Assembly (NCBI GenBank): GCA_965242705.1
Contig: OZ251486.1
Span: forward strand, 3,151,806-3,215,805
DNA: 64,000 bases
Reading direction: 5' to 3'
Source: Bryobacterales bacterium
GTDB lineage: Bacteria > Acidobacteriota > Terriglobia > Bryobacterales > UBA6623
Position 1 is the first letter of the stretch; the number at the start of each line of letters is the position of its first letter. The translations under genes were made by a program, and so were the position numbers. The notes under the pieces are model-generated. The model was not told the DNA's origin and did not search any database. It saw only the letters and a list, made by a program, of their open reading frames with translations. Of this stretch, positions 1 through 48,495 are shown piece after piece.

Positions 1-799
1 CGGCGTCGGCAATGTAAACGTTCCCCGCGGCGTCCGCCGCCACGCCGGTGGGATTCGAGAGTTGCGCCGCCGTCGCCGCGATCCCGTCCATGTTGTAGCC
101 GGAAGTCCCTGTTCCGGCAATGGTGGTAATCACACCCGCCGTATCGACTTTGCGGATGCGCAGGTTGTCCCGATCGGCGATGTAGATGTTGCCTGCGGCG
201 TCCACTGCCACGCCGATGGGGATGTTCAGGCGAGCCGATGTCGCCGGCCCGCCGTCTCCCAGCGGGCCGCTAATGGCCGCCGATCCCGCGACCGTGGAGA
301 TGTTTCCCGTGGAGGCATCGATCTTGCGGATGCGGTGTTGGATGCTGTCGGCGATGTAAACGTTGCCCGCGGCGTCCGCCGCCACTCCGCCGGGGGTGTG
401 CAACCGGGCCGCTGTCGCCGGGCCTCCGTCCCCCAGGTTTCCGCTGGTCGATCCTGTTCCGGCGATTGTGGAAATGTTTCCCGAGGCGGCATCGATCTTG
501 CGGATGCGGTGGTTGCTCGCATCGGCGATGTAAACGTTGCCCGCGGCATCCACCGCCGCGTCGTTGGGCAGGTTGAGTTGGGCCGCCGCAGCCGGGCCGC
601 CGTCGCCGCTGAAACCGGCTGTCCCCGTTCCCGCGACCGTCGAGATGGCGGCGGCGTTTTGCGCCGCCAAGCGGGGAGTGAAAAGCGGCGAATGAAGAGC
701 GAGCGCAGCCAAGACGGCCGCCGCAGGCGAGTGAAGAACGCGAGACCCGCGCCCGCGCGAAAGTCCCGCCTTGGCGGCGGCAAGCCGGGCGCGGAGAGC
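1..799 (-). CDS. NHL-repeat beta-propeller secreted protein. The 3' part runs off the window and the 5' end is unresolved.
   Basis: The minus-strand frame reads ..RARLAAAKAGLSRGRGSRVLHSPAAAVLAALALHSPLFTPRLAAQNAAAISTVAGTGTAGFSGDGGPAAAAQLN..GNVYIADASNHRIRKIDAASGN.., i.e. a signal-like segment followed by NHL units. It is absent from the ORF track because there is no stop inside the window. The track ORFs 62..826(+) and 226..783(-) are off-frame shadows of it. There is no ATG/GTG/TTG in this frame between the TGA at 1006..1004 and the TTG at 712. Confidence 0.8.
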
Positions 800-860
800 A
801 GACGAAAAGGAAAGGAAAAGCCGTAGGTCAGAGAGCGCGGAGAGCGCGCTTCTCCTTATA

Positions 861-981
861 CGGGCTGACGGGCTGACGGGCTGACGGGCTGACGGGCTGA
901 CGGGCTGACGGGCTGACGGGCTGACGGGCTGACGGGCTGACGGGCTGACGGGCTGACGGGCTGACGGGCTGACGGGCTGAC
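861..981. repeat. Perfect tandem octanucleotide repeat (CGGGCTGA)x15, plus 1 nt
   Basis: Read directly: 15 uninterrupted 8-nt units from 861 to 980. The unit length is not a multiple of 3. All three minus-strand frames through it are open, giving the ARQPVSPS peptide repeat seen in track ORF 828..1103(-). Confidence 0.97.
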
Positions 982-989
982 CTTTCCTT

Positions 990-1019
990 ATTGTACATCT
1001 CTCTCACCTCTCCTCGCAA
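990..1019 (-). promoter_or_regulatory. Candidate sigma70-like promoter for the minus-strand NHL gene
   Basis: On the minus strand: TTGCGA (1019..1014), an 18-nt spacer, then TACAAT (995..990), in a locally AT-richer patch. The predicted TSS falls at the first repeat unit. This competes with an SD-like GGAGAGGTGA plus ATG (998..996) on the same strand. Confidence 0.3.
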
Positions 1020-1172
1020 CATTGTTGCCGTATTCGGAAACAAGAATAGCACGCCTTGATATAAAAATTCGCCGCACCCGCGAAAACCGCCGGCGGCGAA
1101 CAATTTTTTCCGCGCGGGCGCAGTTTCCCGTTCATGGACTGCCGTTTTCCGGCTCGCCTACACTGAAAGTCG

Positions 1173-2663
1173 ATGTCCGTTGCGCAATGGGTTGCGGCCG
1201 CCGTCTTGCCGTTTGCCGCGGCGCTGCCGTCCGCGGCTCAGCAAGCCGAGCAGTTGAAGGCCGATATACGCATGTTCAGCGTCATGGCGGCGATCAACGC
1301 CGCAGGCTACGACGACGGGCTTGGCGCGGCCTCCGACAGCCCGGCGCGCAAGGCGCTGCGCAAAGATTTGAGTGCGCTCGACGCCTCGGTCGTCACCCGC
1401 CTCAAGACGTTTTTCGAGCAAAACCGTCTGGAAAACCCCGACCTCAACCTGTCGCAATACATTTCGTTCGCGCTGATGTGCGGCGAGCCGCCGTTCTTCG
1501 ATCTCAAGGCGGAGGTGCCGACCGACCTGCCGGCGGACGTGCGCGCGATCCGCGGGCTGTCGGGCCTGCTGCGCGAGTTTTACGAAAAGGCCGGCATCGA
1601 AAGCCTCTGGCGGAAATATCTGCCCGCCTACGAAGCCGAGATGCTGCGCTATCAGGACGCCTTGGTGCGGATGGTTTTCGAAACGAACGGCTATCTGCGG
1701 CTCTCGCCGACGAGCCGGGAAGCCCGCGGGTTCCAGGTTTATTTCGACTTGCTGGCCGCGCCCGGCAGCGTCAACACGCGCGCTTACGGCGGCGACGTGA
1801 AGGTTGTCATCCATCCGTCGGCGGAAATCCGCATCGAGGAGCTGCGCTCGGCCTACCTGCTGCACCTGTTGGATCGCCTCTCGATCCGCCACGCCGACGC
1901 CGTCGCCAAAAAGAACGTGCTGGCGCGGTTCGCGCTGTTCGCCCCGGTGCTGGAAGAAGCCTACAAAACGAACTTTCAACTGCTGGTGACGAAATCGCTG
2001 GCTCACGCGGTCGAGGCGCGCATGCGCTACGAAACGGAAGAGCGCAAGCTCGCCCGCGTCGAGGCTCGCCTGCGCGAAGGGTTCATCCTGACGCCCTGTT
2101 TCTACGAAAAACTCGCCGAATACGAAAAGCAGCCGAAGTCGATGCGCCGTTACTACGAGTCGATGATCCGCGGCATCGACCTCAAGCGCGAAGCGGCGAG
2201 GCTGCAGGACGTGCGCTTCGCCGAGCGCCGCGCGCGGCCCGCGCCGCGTCCGCGTCCGGTTGCCAGGCCCGCGGTTTCCGAGGTCGAAAAACTGCTGGCG
2301 CGGGCGGAAGGCCTGCTGCAGCTCGAGGAACTCGACGACGCCCGCAAGGCGTTCGAGGAAGCCCTGGAGAAAGCGGGCGGCAGAAACGCGCAGGCCAGCT
2401 ACGGCCTGGGCCGCGCGGCGCTGGACGAAGCGGACCCCGACCTTGCCCTGGAACACTTCGCGGCGGCCGCGGAGGCCGGCGGCGGCGCGCGGCTGACCGC
2501 CATGTCGCACATCTACATGGGACGCATCGAAGACGTCCTGGGCAACCGCGAATTGGCCGTCGAGCACTACAACCGCGCGCTGGCCGCGGGCGACACGTCG
2601 CCGATCACCAGAAAATTCGCCGAAGACGGCCTGGCCGCGCCTTTTACCGGCGCGGAGCAGTGA
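1173..2663 (+). CDS. Secreted hypothetical protein with C-terminal TPR-like repeats
   Basis: 496-aa ORF with normal amino-acid composition and an N-terminal hydrophobic signal (VAAAVLPFAAALPSAAQQ). The C-terminal helical repeats (AQASYGLGRAALDEADPDLALEHF..YMGRIEDVLGNRELAVEHYNRAL) look TPR-like. I did not recognise a specific family. Confidence 0.7.
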   Translation: MSVAQWVAAAVLPFAAALPSAAQQAEQLKADIRMFSVMAAINAAGYDDGLGAASDSPARKALRKDLSALDASVVTRLKTFFEQNRLENPDLNLSQYISFALMCGEPPFFDLKAEVPTDLPADVRAIRGLSGLLREFYEKAGIESLWRKYLPAYEAEMLRYQDALVRMVFETNGYLRLSPTSREARGFQVYFDLLAAPGSVNTRAYGGDVKVVIHPSAEIRIEELRSAYLLHLLDRLSIRHADAVAKKNVLARFALFAPVLEEAYKTNFQLLVTKSLAHAVEARMRYETEERKLARVEARLREGFILTPCFYEKLAEYEKQPKSMRRYYESMIRGIDLKREAARLQDVRFAERRARPAPRPRPVARPAVSEVEKLLARAEGLLQLEELDDARKAFEEALEKAGGRNAQASYGLGRAALDEADPDLALEHFAAAAEAGGGARLTAMSHIYMGRIEDVLGNRELAVEHYNRALAAGDTSPITRKFAEDGLAAPFTGAEQ

Positions 2664-2698: not shown

Positions 2699-4093
2699 AT
2701 GAGCGACCGCAAAGACCTGCTGCGCAGTCTGCCGTCGGTGGATGCGCTGCTCGAATCGGAAGCGGGCGCGGCCTGGCTGCGGGCGCTGCCGCGGGAGCGC
2801 GTTGCGGCCCTGGCGCGGGACGCGCTGGCCGAGGCGCGCGCCGCCATTCTTGCGGACAAGACGCCCGCCGCGCGCCCCGCCGCGGCCGCGGTCAAGGCCG
2901 GCGTCGAAGCGAAACTGGCCCGGCTGACGCGGCCTTCGCTGCGCCGCGTCATCAACGCTTCCGGGGTCATCCTGCATACCAATCTGGGGCGCGCGCCGCT
3001 CGCCGAGGCGGCCGTCGAGGCGATTCGCGAGACCGCGGCCGGATATTCCAATCTGGAGTACGACCTGGCCGCGGGCGGGCGCGGACGGCGCGACGTTCAC
3101 GCGGGCGGGTTGCTCGAGCAGTTGCTCGGCGCGCCGGCCGTCGTCGTCAACAACAACGCGGCGGCGGTCTTGCTGGTGTTGAACGAACTTTCGCGGGACG
3201 GCGAAACAATCGTTTCCCGCGGCGAGTCGATTGAGATCGGCGACGGCTTCCGCATTCCCCAAATCATCGAGCGCTCGGGCGCGGCGCTGCGCGAAGTCGG
3301 AACCGCAAATCGGACGCGAATCGACGACTACCGCGCCGCGGTCGGCGAGCGCAGCCGCGCGCTGCTGCGCGTTCACCCCAGCAACTTCCGGCAGATCGGC
3401 TTCACCGGCCGCCCCAGTCTGGTCGAGATGGCGGCGCTGGCGCGGGAAACGTCGCTGCCCCTGGTGGAAGATCTGGGCAGCGGCTGCCTCGACGACCTGC
3501 GCCCGCTCGGCATCGACGACGAGGCGCCGGTCGGCGCAAGCCTCGCAGCCGGCGCGGACGTAGTGACCTTTTCCGGCGACAAACTGCTGGGCGGCCCGCA
3601 GGCGGGCATTATCGCCGGCAAGCCGCAACTCGTCGAGCGCATCCGGCGCAACCCCCTGTTCCGCGCCTTGCGCGTCGATAAGCTGACCTACGCCGCGCTG
3701 GGGGCGACCTTGCAGGAATACATCCGCGGCAACCGGGAAAGCATCCCCGTCTTGCGCATGATGCATGCGCCGGCGGCCGCGCTGCGCGGGCGGGCCGCGC
3801 GTTTCGTTGCAAGACTCGACCGGCCGGGCGTCGCCGTCCGCGAGAGCGAATCGCTGCTCGGCGGCGGCTCGACGCCGCTGCGCGCGCTGCCTTCGCCGGT
3901 CATCGCGGTCGAGCCGGAGGCCGGCGGGTCGGCCCAGCGCGTCGAGCGGCGGCTGCGCGCCGGCGAGCCGCCGGTAGTCGCCCGCATCGAACAGGGCCGC
4001 CTGCTGCTCGACCTGCGCGCCGTCGCCGAAGCGGAGGAAGACGACCTGCTGCGGGCGCTCGAAGCCGCCCTGCGCGAAGAGCGCCGCGAATAA
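2699..4093 (+). CDS. selA: L-seryl-tRNA(Sec) selenium transferase
   Basis: ATG at 2699 inside track ORF 1022..4093. The protein begins MSDRKDLLRSLPSVDALL and contains VINASGVILHTNLGRAPL and the PLP-lysine motif FSGDKLLGGPQAGII, which are typical of SelA. Confidence 0.95.
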   Translation: MSDRKDLLRSLPSVDALLESEAGAAWLRALPRERVAALARDALAEARAAILADKTPAARPAAAAVKAGVEAKLARLTRPSLRRVINASGVILHTNLGRAPLAEAAVEAIRETAAGYSNLEYDLAAGGRGRRDVHAGGLLEQLLGAPAVVVNNNAAAVLLVLNELSRDGETIVSRGESIEIGDGFRIPQIIERSGAALREVGTANRTRIDDYRAAVGERSRALLRVHPSNFRQIGFTGRPSLVEMAALARETSLPLVEDLGSGCLDDLRPLGIDDEAPVGASLAAGADVVTFSGDKLLGGPQAGIIAGKPQLVERIRRNPLFRALRVDKLTYAALGATLQEYIRGNRESIPVLRMMHAPAAALRGRAARFVARLDRPGVAVRESESLLGGGSTPLRALPSPVIAVEPEAGGSAQRVERRLRAGEPPVVARIEQGRLLLDLRAVAEAEEDDLLRALEAALREERRE

Positions 4094-33895: not shown

Positions 33896-33958
33896 GCCGC
33901 GCCTGACGGCGCGGCAGGGGTTAGAGGTTAGGGGTTGGGGGTTAGGGAAGAAGGGGGG
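33896..33958. repeat. Dispersed intergenic element, copy E3 (hairpin plus G-rich telomere-like tract)
   Basis: GCCGCGCC-TGAC-GGCGCGGC (33896-33915) followed by AGGGGTTAGAGGTTAGGGGTTGGGGGTTAGGGAAGAAGGGGGG. It lies between convergent genes. Confidence 0.88.
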
Positions 33959-39706: not shown

Positions 39707-39895
39707 CCCACGGCGGCGGCGAACGAACCCCCAGTTTAGAACGCGCGCGGCGGCGGGGCCTTGGCGGCAAAGTTCGAGCGTGCGGCGAAAACCGAAACCG
39801 AATCGAACCGTCGAGCGTACAAGGATTCGGTGATCGCCGTGAGATACCGCAAAGTTTTTCCTCGTTTTCTTTTGCCCCGCGGGAACGCGGCTCGA

Positions 39896-42010
39896 ATGCT
39901 CGAGCGTTCTGCGCGGCGGTCCGGCGTTTTCCGCGCCGCCGCGCGGCTTGCCGTCTGCGCCGTGTTGACGGCGGTGGCCGCGTGGGCGCAGCCCGCGGAT
40001 GAGTGGATCATCGAGACGGTTGCCGGGGGCTCGTTCGCGCGGGACGGCGGCCCCGCGGTTCGCGCTTGGCTCCGCTTTCCCAACGGAGCGGCAGTGGACG
40101 GTTCGGGCAATCTGTACATCGCCGATACGATCCACCACCGCATCCGCAAGGTCGATGCCGCAGGCGTCATTTCCACGGTCGCGGGAAGCGGGCGGGACGG
40201 CTACAGCGGAGACGGCGGCCCGGCGGTTCGCGCGCAACTCGCCGAGCCCTGGGGCGCAGCGGTGGACGGCAAAGGCAACCTGTACATCGCCGATACGGGC
40301 AACAACCGCATCCGCAAAGTCGATGCCGCGGGCGTAATCTCGACTGTGGCGGGAAGCGGAGAATGGGGCTACGGCGGAGACGGCGGCCCGGCGGTTCGCG
40401 CGCGGCTCGCCGGCCCCTTGAGCGCCGCGGCGGACGGCATGGGCAATCTGTACATCGCCGACAAGGGCAACAACCGCATCCGCAAGGTCGATGCCGCGGG
40501 CGCCATTTCGACGGTCGCGGGAACCGGGGAGCGGGGCTACGGCGGGGACGGCGGCCCGGCGGTTCGCGCGCAACTCGCCGAGCCTTGGGGCGCCGCGGTG
40601 GACGGCATGGGCAATCTGTACATCGCCGACAAGGGCAACAACCGCATCCGCAAGGTCGATGCCGCGGGCGTGATCTCGACGGTTGCGGGAAGCGGCGGGT
40701 GGGGTTACGGCGGAGACGGCGGCCCGGCGCTTCAGGCGCGGTTCCTCGCGCCCAGCGGCGTAGCGGCGGACGCCGCCGGCAATCTCTATATCGCCGATAC
40801 GGGCAACAACCGCATCCGCAAGGTCGATGCCGCGGGCGTTATTTCCACGGTCGCGGGAACCGGGAAGCAGGGCTACGGCGGAGACGGCGGCGCGGCGCTT
40901 CGAGCGCAACTCGCTTTCCCCCTGGGCGCAGCGGCGGACGGCGCGGGCAATCTCTACATCGTCGATGCGGGCAACAACCGCATTCGCAAGGTCGATGCCG
41001 CGGGCGCGATCTCCACGGTTGCGGGAACCGGGGACGTCGGCGACGGCGGCCCGGCGGTTCGCGCTTGGCTCGGCTTCCCCGGCAGCGTGACCGCGGACGG
41101 CGCGGGCAATCTCTATATCGCCGATACATTCAACGAACGCATCCGCAAGGTGGATGCCGCGGGCGTTATTTCCACGGTCGCGGGAAGCGGGGAGCGGGGT
41201 TACGTCGGGGACGGCGGCCCGGCGGCTCAGGCGCGGCTCGCCTCCCCTCTGAGTGCGGCGGCGGACGGGGCGGGCAACCTCTATTTCGTCGATGCAGGCA
41301 ACCACTGTGTCCGCAAGGTCGATGCCGCGGGCGCGGTCTCCACGGTCGCGGGAAGCGGACGATACGGCTACGGCGGGGACGGCGGCCCGGCGGTTCGCGC
41401 GCAACTCGCCTTGCCTCGAGGCGCGGCGCTGGACGATGCGGGCAACCTTTATATCGCCGATACCGAAAACCACCGCGTTCGCAAGGTGGACGCAGCGGGC
41501 GCCATTTCCACGGTCGCGGGAACCGGGAAGCAGGGCTACAGCGGCGACGGGGGCGCGGCGGTTCGCGCGCAACTCGCTTTCCCTTGGGGCGTGGCGGCGG
41601 ACGGGGCGGGCAACCTCTACATCGCCGACAGGAACAACCACCGTATCCGCAAGGTCGATGCCGCCGGCGCCATCTCCACGGTTGCGGGAAGCGGACAGTG
41701 GGGCTACGGCGGGGACGGGAGCGCGGCGGTTCGCGCGCAACTCGCTTTCCCTTACAACGTGGCGGCGGACGAGGCGGACAGCCTGTACATTGCCGATACC
41801 TGGAACGACCGCATCCGCAAAGTCGATGCCGCGGGCGTCATTTCCACAATTGCGGGAACGGGAGAAATGGGCTACAGCGGCGACGGAGGCGCGGCGGTTC
41901 GGGCGCGGCTGTCTTACCCCGCAGACGTGGCAGTGGACCGGGCCGGCAACCTCTACATCGCCGACAGCGGCAACAACAGCATCCGCCGCTTGCGCCGGTT
42001 GGGGAACTAG
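39896..42010 (+). CDS. Secreted NHL-repeat protein (12 highly similar NHL units)
   Basis: ATG at 39896 (MLERSARRSGVFRAAARLAVCAVLTAVAAWAQP), then 12 units of the form GNLYIADxGNNRIRKVDAAGVISTVAGSGxxGYGGDGGPAVRAQLAxPxGAAxDG. Confidence 0.9.
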   Translation: MLERSARRSGVFRAAARLAVCAVLTAVAAWAQPADEWIIETVAGGSFARDGGPAVRAWLRFPNGAAVDGSGNLYIADTIHHRIRKVDAAGVISTVAGSGRDGYSGDGGPAVRAQLAEPWGAAVDGKGNLYIADTGNNRIRKVDAAGVISTVAGSGEWGYGGDGGPAVRARLAGPLSAAADGMGNLYIADKGNNRIRKVDAAGAISTVAGTGERGYGGDGGPAVRAQLAEPWGAAVDGMGNLYIADKGNNRIRKVDAAGVISTVAGSGGWGYGGDGGPALQARFLAPSGVAADAAGNLYIADTGNNRIRKVDAAGVISTVAGTGKQGYGGDGGAALRAQLAFPLGAAADGAGNLYIVDAGNNRIRKVDAAGAISTVAGTGDVGDGGPAVRAWLGFPGSVTADGAGNLYIADTFNERIRKVDAAGVISTVAGSGERGYVGDGGPAAQARLASPLSAAADGAGNLYFVDAGNHCVRKVDAAGAVSTVAGSGRYGYGGDGGPAVRAQLALPRGAALDDAGNLYIADTENHRVRKVDAAGAISTVAGTGKQGYSGDGGAAVRAQLAFPWGVAADGAGNLYIADRNNHRIRKVDAAGAISTVAGSGQWGYGGDGSAAVRAQLAFPYNVAADEADSLYIADTWNDRIRKVDAAGVISTIAGTGEMGYSGDGGAAVRARLSYPADVAVDRAGNLYIADSGNNSIRRLRRLGN

Positions 42011-47834: not shown

Positions 47835-47885
47835 GGGGCGGGGGGCGGGCGCGTTTCATGCAGCCGGAATTCGTGTAACTTGGGG
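47835..47885 (+). repeat. Junction repeat J2, copy 2 (runs into the G18 tract)
   Basis: GGGGCGGGGGGCGGGCGCGTTTCATGCAGCCGGAATTCGTGTAACTTGGGG. Confidence 0.9.
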
Positions 47886-47899
47886 GGGGGGGGGGGGGG
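47882..47899 (+). repeat. Homopolymeric G18 tract
   Basis: Read directly: 18 consecutive G, ending 2 nt before the ATG at 47902. Confidence 0.95.
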
Positions 47900-47901
47900 C
47901 G

Positions 47902-48495
47902 ATGCGCGTACAGATATTTTCCGACATCCACGGCGACCTGAAAGCGTTGGAGCGGGCGGTTGCGGTCGAGGCCGACATCTACATCGCCGCGGGCGACTTG
48001 GTGACTTGGCCGGCGCCGCTCGACGACTGCGGGAAAATCCTGACGCCGCTCGGCGAGAAGCTGTGGGCCATGCCGGGCAACAATGAGACCGACGAACAGA
48101 TCGCGGAGTTCTGCGCGGAATACGGCTTGCGCAACTTTCACGATACGGTCATCGAGGTCGCCGGCACGCATTTCGCCGGGCTCGGCTACTCCAATCCGAC
48201 GCCGTTCGACACGCCGGGAGAGTACAGCGAGCAGGAGCTTGAGCGGCGGCTGGCGCGGTTCGCGGCGCTGCAGCCGCTCGTGCTGGTCTGCCACGCGCCG
48301 CCGCTCGACAGCCCGCTGGACGAGTCGGCGGGCGGCAATCACTTCGGCAGCAGCGCCGTGCGCGCGTTCCTCGACGCCCACGCCCCGACATATTTTTTCT
48401 GCGGGCACATCCACGAGTCCGCCGGCCGAGTCGCGCGCATGGGCCCAACGTTGGCGGCGAACGTCGGCAAGAAGGGCTATCTGCTCGAGCTGTAA
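47902..48495 (+). CDS. Calcineurin-like metallophosphoesterase
   Basis: MRVQIFSDIHGD.., ..AAGDLV.., ..MPGNNE.., ..VCHAPP.., ..CGHIHE.., i.e. the canonical metallophosphoesterase motif series. Confidence 0.82.
   Translation: MRVQIFSDIHGDLKALERAVAVEADIYIAAGDLVTWPAPLDDCGKILTPLGEKLWAMPGNNETDEQIAEFCAEYGLRNFHDTVIEVAGTHFAGLGYSNPTPFDTPGEYSEQELERRLARFAALQPLVLVCHAPPLDSPLDESAGGNHFGSSAVRAFLDAHAPTYFFCGHIHESAGRVARMGPTLAANVGKKGYLLEL

What the first reader, a model, noticed from the sequence alone, without database searches (positions are those of the whole stretch)
712..1019. A 15-copy octanucleotide repeat separates the only SD+ATG from an NHL gene that has no start codon in its own frame
The minus-strand NHL gene has a clear signal-peptide-like segment (RARLAAAKAGLSRGRGSRVLHSPAAAVLAALALHSPLF, about 793-680). 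Its frame contains no ATG/GTG/TTG between the in-frame TGA at 1006..1004 and TTG 712, and TTG 712 would delete the n-region.

Immediately upstream of the perfect (CGGGCTGA)x15 tract (861-980) there is an SD-like GGAGAGGTGA and an ATG (998..996). That ATG reads through the repeat as (ARQPVSPS)n but in another frame, stopping at 830..828. Because the unit is 8 nt, gaining 1 unit or losing 2 units would fuse that ATG in frame to the NHL protein. This is the architecture of a slipped-strand phase-variation switch, here apparently in the OFF state.

There are two caveats. A fused product would carry about 95 residues before the hydrophobic core, which is atypical for a Sec signal. Also, a TTGCGA-18-TACAAT promoter candidate would place the repeat in the 5' UTR instead.
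Basis: partly seen in the sequence, partly recalled or inferred. Interest (0 to 1): 0.75.

Follow-up and report, generated by a model that had tools for sequence, protein, structure and literature searches.

The report
Variable 8-base repeat before startless NHL gene
A perfect 15-copy 8-base repeat lies between a ribosome-binding site plus ATG and a secreted-type NHL-repeat gene that has no usable start codon of its own; its copy number differs between related strains, so it is most likely a slippage on/off switch, caught "off", in an uncultured soil-type Acidobacterium.

Summary
(TCAGCCCG)x15 is perfect at 860-981. The NHL frame has no ATG/GTG/TTG between TGA 1006 and TTG 712. ATG 998 follows a 7-nt Shine-Dalgarno match and reads through the repeat in another frame, stopping at 830. 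Adding 1 unit or removing 2 fuses it to the NHL protein.

New evidence comes from five other assemblies that carry alleles of this locus.
- The repeat is polymorphic: 15 copies here, 7 in L113, at least 7 with a variant first unit in L125.
- Four short-read contigs end inside the repeat.
- About 35 nt before and 100 nt after the repeat are hypervariable, yet an SD-like element plus an ATG persists in all three haplotypes.
- A second NHL paralog in the window has the same layout (promoter, SD, ATG, C15 tract, signal peptide), there in frame.

Three things count against a simple translational switch.
- Both fully sequenced alleles are out of frame, and no in-frame allele was found.
- The TTGCGA-18-TAnnnT promoter-like site overlapping the ATG is also conserved.
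- The linker shows no coding signature.

Verdict: a contingency-type repeat locus. Translational switching is favoured (about 0.5). A promoter-proximal expression dial and a decayed 5' end are the live rivals. It is a new member of a known kind, in an unusual organism.

The parts
860..981 (-). Perfect octanucleotide array, (TCAGCCCG)x15 on the gene strand. It is open in all three frames on that strand and always encodes the cyclic peptide SARQPVSP. The + strand, (GGGCTGAC)n, carries TGA and fits a G-quadruplex pattern.
   Evidence: Copy number differs between alleles: 7 in L113 and at least 7 in L125.
996..998 (-). ATG, 15 nt upstream of the repeat. It is conserved in all six alleles that reach it.
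1004..1010 (-). GAGGTGA, a Shine-Dalgarno-type match 5 nt before ATG 998. It is GAAGTGA in haplotype B and is replaced by AAGGAGG in haplotype C, which also has a new ATG 7 nt downstream.
828..998 (-). Leader ORF in the present (OFF) phase: MYNKERSA(RQPVSPSA)n..PYKEKRALRAL, ending at TGA 830..828.
990..1019 (-). Sigma-70-like site TTGCGA-18-TACAAT (P2). It overlaps the SD and ATG and would start transcription at the edge of the repeat.
   Evidence: only hit, 0 in 50 shuffles. The -35 hexamer, the spacer length and TAnnnT are conserved in six alleles.
1039..1058 (-). Invariant 20-nt block CAAGGCGTGCTATTCTTGTT containing TGcTATTCT (1051..1043). This is an extended -10-like candidate promoter (P1) that would include the SD and ATG in the mRNA.
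   Evidence: The promoter reading is my inference, made by analogy with the TG-extended promoter of the paralog.
982..1013 (-). Hypervariable segment just upstream of the repeat. 9 of 33 positions differ between haplotypes B and C, and L113 has a 2-nt indel.
852..857 (-). AAGGAG immediately after the repeat, with no start codon within reach. It can pair locally with CUCUCC at about 840.
763..859 (-). Linker between the repeat and the signal-like segment. It is open in the NHL frame but pyrimidine-rich, lacks GC3 periodicity, and carries 7 substitutions against L113, 6 of them non-synonymous.
662..760 (-). Signal-peptide-like segment SRGRGSRVLHSPAAAVLAALALHSPLFTPRLAA, followed by Q. It shares short motifs (AAAK, a hydrophobic core ending in H, A|Q) with the leader of the paralog at 10964.
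   Evidence: There are zero substitutions against L113 in 762..516.
710..712 (-). TTG, the only canonical start in the NHL frame. The gene caller chose it in L113. It would remove the charged n-region and half of the hydrophobic core.
1..712 (-). NHL-repeat beta-propeller ORF. It runs off the window start and continues for at least 436 codons in L113.
1068..1084 (-). Weak terminator-like hairpin plus T-run at the upstream edge of the leader. The leader stays with the NHL side in strains where 3.3 kb is inserted next to it.

Best explanation
The locus is a hypermutable simple-sequence-repeat (contingency) switch for an exported NHL-repeat protein.

Proposed mechanism:
1. Transcription starts upstream of the SD, possibly at the invariant TGcTATTCT block.
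2. Ribosomes initiate at ATG 998 and read through the 8-nt array, which is open in every frame.
3. Depending on the unit number modulo 3, they either continue into the signal peptide and NHL domains (ON) or stop 3 to 30 nt after the array (OFF).
4. Slipped-strand mispairing during replication changes the unit number. The window allele (15 units) is OFF and one unit short of ON. Allele L113 (7 units plus a 2-nt flank indel) is OFF and one unit above ON.

Shown: the anatomy, copy-number polymorphism between strains, hypervariable flanks, persistence of SD plus ATG across haplotypes, and the absence of any other start that keeps the signal peptide.

Inferred: that ATG 998 is transcribed and used, that switching occurs within a clone, and that the fused product, with about 65 to 95 extra N-terminal residues, is exported or membrane-anchored.
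For: - The array is perfect and its unit length is not a multiple of 3.
- The gene strand is open in all frames, and the two wrong frames close at 858 and 830.
- Simulated 13- and 16-unit alleles fuse ATG 998 to the NHL ORF.
- No ATG/GTG/TTG precedes the signal-like segment. The same start-less sequence, without indels, is in an independent Illumina assembly, so this is not an error.
- Copy number is 15, 7 and at least 7 in different strains, and four ENA short-read contigs end inside the array.
- ATG is conserved in six alleles despite about 27% divergence around it. Haplotype C has replaced GAGGTGA-N5-ATG with AAGGAGG plus a second ATG at 7-nt spacing.
- The paralog at 10874..14263 shows promoter, then GGAGA-N7-ATG, then 7 codons, then C15, then a signal peptide, all in frame.
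- The only three long perfect repeats in 64 kb all lie in 5' gene regions.
- The NHL body has 4 synonymous and 4 non-synonymous changes against L113 and an intact ORF of at least 436 codons, so the gene does not look dead.
Against: - Both complete alleles are out of frame.
- A search with the hypothetical ON-state N-terminus found only unrelated repeat ORFs.
- The TTGCGA-18-TAnnnT site overlaps the SD and ATG. Its pattern of conservation (-35, spacer length, T1/A2/T6 of the -10) is what a working promoter would show.
- Between ATG and the repeat, changes fall on codon positions 1 and 2, while the third base of codon 3 (the T6 of the -10) is invariant.
- The linker has GC3 of 0.66, against 0.78-0.92 in real coding sequence here, and mostly non-synonymous changes.
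- The fused product would carry about 93 residues with net charge +15 before the hydrophobic core, which is unusual for a Sec signal.
- Only three haplotype groups and two complete alleles were available.
Confidence: 0.5

Rival explanations
1. The array is a promoter-proximal or 5'-UTR repeat acting as an expression dial, like the hmwA repeats of Haemophilus influenzae. Transcription starts at the TTGCGA-18-TACAAT promoter, about 7 nt before the array. The array is the first 120 nt of the mRNA, or a barrier on the template strand (it is a G4-type motif there). Its length tunes transcript level. ATG 998 is not expressed.
For: - It is the only sigma-70-like site in the region, with 0 in 50 shuffles.
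- The -35 hexamer, the 18-nt spacer length and TAnnnT are conserved in six alleles, while spacer bases and -10 positions 3-5 vary. The one indel lies downstream of the -10.
- The linker lacks a coding signature.
- The + strand fits a G-quadruplex pattern at 862..976.
- Precedent: 7-bp repeats (9-28 copies) in hmwA promoters, where more repeats go with less mRNA (PMC2424069), and an 8-nt unit GCATCATC x12-15 upstream of hmwA in biogroup aegyptius (PMC3309571).
Against: - The gene then needs its own start. The only one is TTG 712, with no good SD, and it deletes the n-region and half the hydrophobic core.
- AAGGAG after the array has no start codon in range.
- This model does not explain why an SD-like element plus ATG persists and is even improved in haplotype C.
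- The -10 is only TACGCT (3 of 6) in haplotype B.
- The RNA fold of the leader is less stable than shuffles (z = +1.7), so no structured element is evident.
Confidence: 0.2
2. The 5' end of this NHL copy has decayed. The ancestral start codon was lost, and the gene is silent or makes a non-exported product from TTG 712. The array is a neutral, fast-evolving microsatellite in what is now non-coding DNA, and the SD plus ATG upstream is fortuitous.
For: - No start codon precedes the signal segment in either complete allele.
- Both alleles are out of frame.
- The flanks evolve faster than synonymous sites: 7 changes in 98 nt, against 4 synonymous changes in 762 nt of ORF (about 190 synonymous sites by my estimate).
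- GC3 of the gene (0.78-0.81) is lower than in the paralog (0.87).
- The locus is accessory: it is absent from this position in relatives whose neighbouring TPR protein is 79-90% identical.
- The same octamer forms arrays in more than 112 unrelated GC-rich genomes, so it arises easily.
Against: - The ORF is intact for at least 436 codons in two strains.
- There are no substitutions in 762..516 and a 4:4 synonymous to non-synonymous ratio overall.
- Array purity is 100% at 15 units.
- ATG and an SD-like element persist across diverged haplotypes.
- The paralog has the same layout with an in-frame C15.
- All three long repeats in the window lie at gene 5' ends.
Confidence: 0.2
3. It is an assembly artefact. 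Either the copy number of the array or a base in 713..860 is wrong, and the real gene is in frame with a normal start.
For: - Perfect 120-nt arrays are hard for short-read assemblers, and four ENA contigs stop inside this one.
- The consensus of a mixed population hides minority lengths.
Against: - The window's TPR protein is identical to one recorded on a 4,969,973-bp contig. This points to a highly contiguous assembly, presumably long-read (my inference).
- L113, an independent short-read assembly, spans its 7-unit array and matches window 860..1 with 15 substitutions and no indel.
- No canonical start exists in any frame that could be joined by a single-base error to give a normal signal peptide.
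Confidence: 0.05

Closest known systems
Coding-region repeat switches of host-adapted bacteria (Neisseria opa CTCTT; Haemophilus influenzae lic1A/lic2A CAAT, hgp CCAA, mod AGCC/AGTC). Recalled from established literature; criteria as used in PMC7383803.
   Same: - ATG, then a few codons, then a perfect repeat whose unit is not a multiple of 3 and which is open in all frames.
- Wrong frames stop soon after the tract.
- The target is a surface or exported protein.
- Copy number is polymorphic between strains.
   Different: - The unit is 8 nt, which is rare. PMC7383803 lists octanucleotide tracts as one class used to call phase-variable genes.
- The organism is a free-living, uncultured Acidobacterium.
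- The tract and a 30-codon unconstrained linker lie upstream of the signal peptide rather than in or after it.
- No ON allele or within-clone switching has been seen.
hmw1A/hmw2A upstream repeats of Haemophilus influenzae: 7-bp units, 9-28 copies (PMC2424069), and the 8-nt unit GCATCATC x12-15 in biogroup aegyptius (PMC3309571).
   Same: - The repeat has an 8-nt (or 7-nt) unit and 12-15 copies, directly upstream of a large adhesin-like gene and next to the promoter.
- Copy number differs between strains and between paralogous copies.
   Different: hmwA has its own start codon downstream of the repeats, and the effect is graded at the mRNA level. Here no usable start follows the array, and an SD plus ATG precedes it.
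Homopolymeric-tract phase variation (for example poly-G or poly-C tracts in Neisseria pilC, opc, porA and Bordetella fim; recalled from established literature).
   Same: The paralog in this window has a C15 tract 7 codons after an SD plus ATG, and a G18 tract abuts another gene's ATG. Together with the 8-mer they suggest a genome that uses several repeat types.
   Different: These concern the neighbouring loci, not the 8-mer itself. Their variability could not be checked here.

Membership tests
Translational simple-sequence-repeat phase-variable (contingency) gene | Perfect tandem repeat with a unit length not divisible by 3 and a tract long enough to slip. | tested here: met
   8 nt x 15.2 copies, 100% identity.
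Translational simple-sequence-repeat phase-variable (contingency) gene | The tract lies inside the reading frame, downstream of an initiation codon with a ribosome-binding site, and is stop-free in all frames on the coding strand. | tested here: met
   GAGGTGA-N5-ATG 998 lies 15 nt before the tract, and the minus strand of the tract has no stop in any frame. Whether this ATG is used was not testable.
Translational simple-sequence-repeat phase-variable (contingency) gene | Gain or loss of units toggles between a full-length and a truncated product. | tested here: met
   Simulated 16 and 13 units give a fused ORF. 15 units stops at 830, and the third frame stops at 858.
Translational simple-sequence-repeat phase-variable (contingency) gene | The tract length is polymorphic among closely related strains. 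| tested here: met
   15 (window), 7 (L113), at least 7 with a variant first unit (L125), and at least 3 in three more contigs that end in the tract.
Translational simple-sequence-repeat phase-variable (contingency) gene | Both in-frame and out-of-frame alleles occur in nature. | tested here: not met
   0 of 2 complete alleles are in frame, and there is no ON-type protein in the 5.8-billion-protein collection. The sample is very small, so this lowers the claim but does not exclude it.
Translational simple-sequence-repeat phase-variable (contingency) gene | High-frequency reversible switching within a clonal population. | not testable with these tools
   This needs read pile-ups or culture.
Promoter or 5'-UTR repeat modulating transcription (hmwA type) | The repeat lies between the promoter or transcription start and the start codon. 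| tested here: inconclusive
   A promoter-like site ends 9 nt before the tract and its key positions are conserved. No transcription start data are available.
Promoter or 5'-UTR repeat modulating transcription (hmwA type) | The downstream gene has its own functional start codon and ribosome-binding site after the repeat. | tested here: not met
   The only start is TTG 712, without a good SD, and it truncates the signal segment. AAGGAG at 857..852 has no start codon in range.
NHL-repeat beta-propeller protein (Pfam PF01436) | Significant matches to the NHL repeat model above the curated cut-off. | tested here: met
   87.8 bits against a cut-off of 20 for the window fragment, and 130.7 bits for the L113 ortholog.
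Sec-type cleavable signal peptide | A positively charged n-region, a hydrophobic core and a small-residue cleavage motif close to the N-terminus. | tested here: inconclusive
   The n-region, the core (Kyte-Doolittle 2.25 at PAAAVLAALAL) and AA|Q are present and parallel two paralogs. However, the segment would lie about 85-95 residues from the only available ATG, and no signal-peptide predictor was available.

The most novel reading that the evidence does not exclude
This free-living, soil-type Acidobacterium (Solibacter/Bryobacter-like) may run a set of repeat-based contingency loci. These would include an 8-mer array and a C15 tract in front of two NHL-repeat surface proteins and a G18 tract at another gene's ribosome-binding site. 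They would switch cell-surface proteins on and off stochastically, for example against phages or predators. That would extend phase variation, a strategy known almost only from host-adapted pathogens, to a dominant uncultured soil lineage.
Probability: 0.35. Interest if true: 0.7.

Novelty: new member of a known kind. Interest (0 to 1): 0.55.

Why it matters
Repeat-driven phase variation is textbook biology for Neisseria, Haemophilus, Campylobacter and mycoplasmas. My full-text searches found no report of it in Acidobacteria.

If the switch is real, three things follow.
- Abundant soil bacteria would diversify their surface stochastically. This bears on phage-host dynamics and on strain heterogeneity in metagenomes.
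- It would explain why gene callers truncate or mis-start such genes, and why short-read contigs of this species break at this spot.
- It gives a concrete locus that can be tested with existing read sets.

Tried and rejected
- Exact look-up of the window's TPR protein in the assembly index found nothing on record, even though the same sequence is listed from a 4.97-Mb NCBI/ENA contig.
- A protein search with the NHL fragment was swamped by NHL paralogs. The best hit was 64% identical and only the repeats aligned, so it said nothing about N-termini.
- A protein search with a hypothetical ON-state N-terminus returned six hits. All were spurious ORFs across the same DNA repeat in unrelated organisms.
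- A genome-collection scan for (TCAGCCCG)3 gave more than 112 hits, mostly Streptomyces and other GC-rich taxa and none acidobacterial. The octamer is therefore not a family marker. The frame-context survey of those arrays was uninformative.
- Two metagenome scans, with the conserved upstream and downstream flanks, gave zero hits.
- Rfam gave only a chance-level hit (E = 0.62).
- The RNA fold of the leader was less stable than shuffles. A 9-nt complement, AAGGAAAGG with CCTTTCCTT, brackets the array in the window but is not kept in other alleles, so it was rejected as a conserved stem.
- A local BLAST of the leader against the rest of the window found no second copy, so the leader is not a repeated cassette.
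- A frameshift or sequencing error in 713..860 was rejected by the indel-free match to L113.
- Non-canonical starts: only ATA at 859 and 991 lie in frame, neither with an SD.
Full report
**1. The observation**

- Tandem Repeats Finder reports an array at 860..981 with period 8, 15.2 copies, 100% matches and no indels. A two-unit probe matches 14 overlapping times, against 0.14 expected.
- On the minus strand the unit is TCAGCCCG. It has no stop codon in any frame and always encodes the cyclic peptide SARQPVSP.
- The minus-strand ORF that runs off the window start is an NHL-repeat protein: Pfam NHL 87.8 bits against a cut-off of 20.
- In its frame, the only start or stop codons between 1006 and 640 are TGA 1006, near-cognate ATA at 991 and 859, TTG 712 and TTG 670.
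- ATG 998 lies in another frame, which closes at TGA 830. The third frame closes at TAA 858.
- GAGGTGA (1010..1004) lies 5 nt before the ATG.
- Alleles built in silico with 16 or 13 units give a single ORF from ATG 998 into the NHL domains.
- The TTGCGA-18-TACAAT site (1019..990) is the only sigma-70-like match in 600..1250.

**2. Where the window comes from and what surrounds the locus**

- The divergent neighbour (1173..2663, a TPR protein) is identical to a protein recorded from a 4,969,973-bp NCBI/ENA contig. The window therefore comes from a highly contiguous assembly.
- Named relatives at 52-56% identity are Bryobacterales or Acidobacteria. A paralog in the window carries the Solibacter C-terminal domain TIGR03437. 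The organism is thus a Solibacter/Bryobacter-like Acidobacterium; this is an inference.
- The window contains two further NHL genes (10805..14263 and 39761..42010), each with an ordinary signal peptide ending in A|Q.

**3. Other alleles of the locus**

I used the TPR neighbour as a handle to recover contigs of the same species from several metagenomes.

| Allele | Sample | What it shows |
|---|---|---|
| L113 | ERZ23495711 | Spans the whole region; 7 units; 2 extra bases between ATG and the array |
| L116 | ERZ23495997 | Carries the same leader; contig stops inside the array |
| L122 | ERZ23495725 | Carries the same leader; contig stops inside the array |
| L123 | ERZ23496570 | Carries the same leader; contig stops inside the array |
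| L125 | ERZ23495738 | Carries the same leader; stops inside the array after at least 7 units, the first being TTAGCCCG |
| L114, L115, L124 | Logan (SRR18249218, SRR18249444, SRR18249242) | Contigs stop 4-13 nt before the array |

- The array is therefore present in every strain that has the leader, and its length differs between strains.
- In L116 and L125 a 3.3-kb DprA-helicase segment separates the leader from the TPR gene, and the leader stays on the NHL side. The leader therefore belongs to the NHL gene.
- Relatives whose TPR protein is 79-90% identical have no NHL gene at this position. The locus is accessory.

**4. What the comparison says**

*Not an error.* From the array down to window position 1, L113 differs by 15 substitutions and no indel. 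The start-less 5' end is real.

*The flanks are hypervariable.*
- There are 7 substitutions in 859..763, none in 762..516 and 8 in 515..1.
- Upstream of the array, 9 of 33 positions differ between haplotypes B and C.

*Conserved features within the variable stretch:*
- the -35-like TTGCGA (TTGCGG in one allele);
- an 18-nt spacer of fixed length;
- GATGTA;
- a T three bases further on.

These conserved bases can be read in two ways.
- ATG-TAy, a start codon. An SD-like purine run precedes it in each haplotype: GAGGTGA in A, GAAGTGA in B and AAGGAGG in C. Haplotype C also has a new ATG at the ideal 7-nt spacing.
- T-A-n-n-n-T, the core of a -10 hexamer.

The data do not separate the two readings. 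An invariant block further upstream (1058..1039) contains TGcTATTCT. This extended -10-like site could drive a transcript that includes the SD and ATG (inference).

**5. Phase of the known alleles**

- The window allele needs +1 or -2 units to be in frame.
- L113, because of its 2-nt flank indel, needs -1 or +2 units.
- Both are OFF, each in a different wrong frame.
- With two alleles this is uninformative (chance 4 in 9). However, no ON allele was found, and a search with a model ON-state N-terminus found nothing.

**6. Coding signal**

| Segment | GC3 |
|---|---|
| NHL body | 0.78-0.81 |
| Signal peptides of the two paralogs | 0.88-0.92 |
| 762..640 | 0.71 |
| Linker 859..763 | 0.66 (no periodicity) |

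Six of the seven linker substitutions are non-synonymous. The linker is thus either non-coding or translated without constraint. The signal-like segment SRGRGSRVLHSPAAAVLAALALHSPLFTPRLAA|Q shares short motifs (AAAK, a hydrophobic core ending in H, A|Q) with the paralog leader. Only an upstream start can supply its n-region.

**7. A second example in the same window**

- Only three long perfect repeats exist in the 64 kb: this array, C15 at 10896..10910 and G18 at 47882..47899.
- C15 follows a TG-extended promoter-like site (10819..10847), then GGAGA-N7-ATG 10874 and seven codons. It is in frame with the signal peptide of the NHL/Soli_cterm paralog, which also has an alternative GTG 10964 behind GGAGG.
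- G18 ends 2 nt before the ATG of a metallophosphoesterase-like ORF.
- By my rough estimate, homopolymers of 15 and 18 are each expected less than 0.01 times by chance in 64 kb at this composition.
- The recurrence of promoter, SD-ATG, repeat and signal peptide at two NHL paralogs is the strongest indirect argument that the layout is functional.

**8. Interpretation**

- Best supported is a contingency locus in which unit number sets the reading frame from ATG 998 into the exported NHL protein. The window allele is OFF. I put this at about 0.5.
- The main rival (0.2) is an hmwA-like arrangement. There the array lies just downstream of the TTGCGA/TACAAT promoter and tunes the transcript level. 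Precedents are the 7-bp repeats and the 8-nt GCATCATC x12-15 upstream of hmwA (PMC2424069, PMC3309571). Its weakness is that no usable start codon follows the array.
- A decayed 5' end with a neutral microsatellite (0.2) fits the OFF alleles and the fast flanks. It does not fit the intact ORF, the purity of the array, the persistent SD-ATG or the paralog's parallel layout.
- Assembly error is unlikely (0.05).
- An RNA element is not supported: nothing in Rfam, and the fold is no better than shuffles.

**9. Comparison with known systems and novelty**

- Functionally the locus resembles the classical coding-tract switches (opa, lic, hgp, mod). It meets four of their defining features, fails one on a very small sample (no in-frame allele seen), and leaves within-clone switching untestable.
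- It is not a member of any sequence family. The octamer itself forms arrays in more than 112 unrelated GC-rich genomes.
- I rate it a new member of a known kind. The unusual points are the 8-nt unit, the long unconstrained N-terminal extension before the signal peptide, and the host, an uncultured free-living Acidobacterium. My literature searches turned up no report of repeat-driven phase variation in that group.

**10. What would settle it**

Per-read unit counts in the existing read sets, a mapped transcription start (about 1040 versus about 983), and reporter fusions with 13 to 16 units.

Noticed in passing
window 10819-10966: A second NHL paralog (10805..14263, with the Solibacter C-terminal domain) has the same leader layout: a promoter-like TTGTGA-17-TATATT with TG, GGAGA-N7-ATG 10874, 7 codons, a perfect C15 tract (10896-10910), then in frame into the signal peptide. 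GTG 10964 behind GGAGG is an alternative start.
   Followed up: partly
window 47882-47904: A perfect G18 tract ends 2 nt before the ATG (47902) of a metallophosphoesterase-like ORF (MRVQIFSDIHGD...). The tract occupies the ribosome-binding-site position.
   Followed up: no
window 10679-10704 and 33916-33947: Imperfect arrays of a telomere-like heptamer, (CCCCTAA)x3.7 and (AGGGGTT)x4.6. It is the same unit (TTAGGGG) on opposite strands, and neither array lies in an obvious gene.
   Followed up: no
L116 100-190 and 3300-3380; L125 130-220; window 1075-1105: In two strains a 3.3-kb segment encoding DprA and a ResIII/DEAD helicase lies between the NHL leader and the TPR gene. In L116 it is flanked by about 20-nt direct repeats (CGAAAACCGyCGsCGGCG). 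The window has a single copy, so the difference is an insertion or deletion through short repeats.
   Followed up: partly
window 862-976 (+ strand): The + strand of the array, (GGGCTGAC)n, fits the G3N1-7 G-quadruplex pattern. It is the longest such motif among 12 in the window, and it is the template strand for the NHL gene.
   Followed up: no
L001-L112 (genome-contig hits): (TCAGCCCG) arrays of 3-12 units occur in more than 112 unrelated GC-rich genomes, including Streptomyces, Micromonospora, Kribbella, Paraburkholderia, Acidimicrobiales and Sorangium. This octamer seems prone to expansion.
   Followed up: partly
L113-L116, L122-L125, last ~35 nt before the array: The stretch before the array exists as at least three haplotypes (A: window, L123, L113; B: L116, L125; C: L122), plus a mosaic in L115. 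This suggests recombination or a local mutation hot spot, and co-occurring strains probably explain the breaks in the Logan contigs.
   Followed up: partly
L117 1-30: This Logan contig ends in Illumina adapter sequence (AGATCGGAAGAGCGTCGTGTAGGG), an assembly contaminant rather than biology.
   Followed up: yes
window 2700-4093: A SelA (selenocysteine synthase) gene follows the TPR gene, and this order is syntenic in all relatives examined. The organism therefore probably uses selenocysteine.
   Followed up: no
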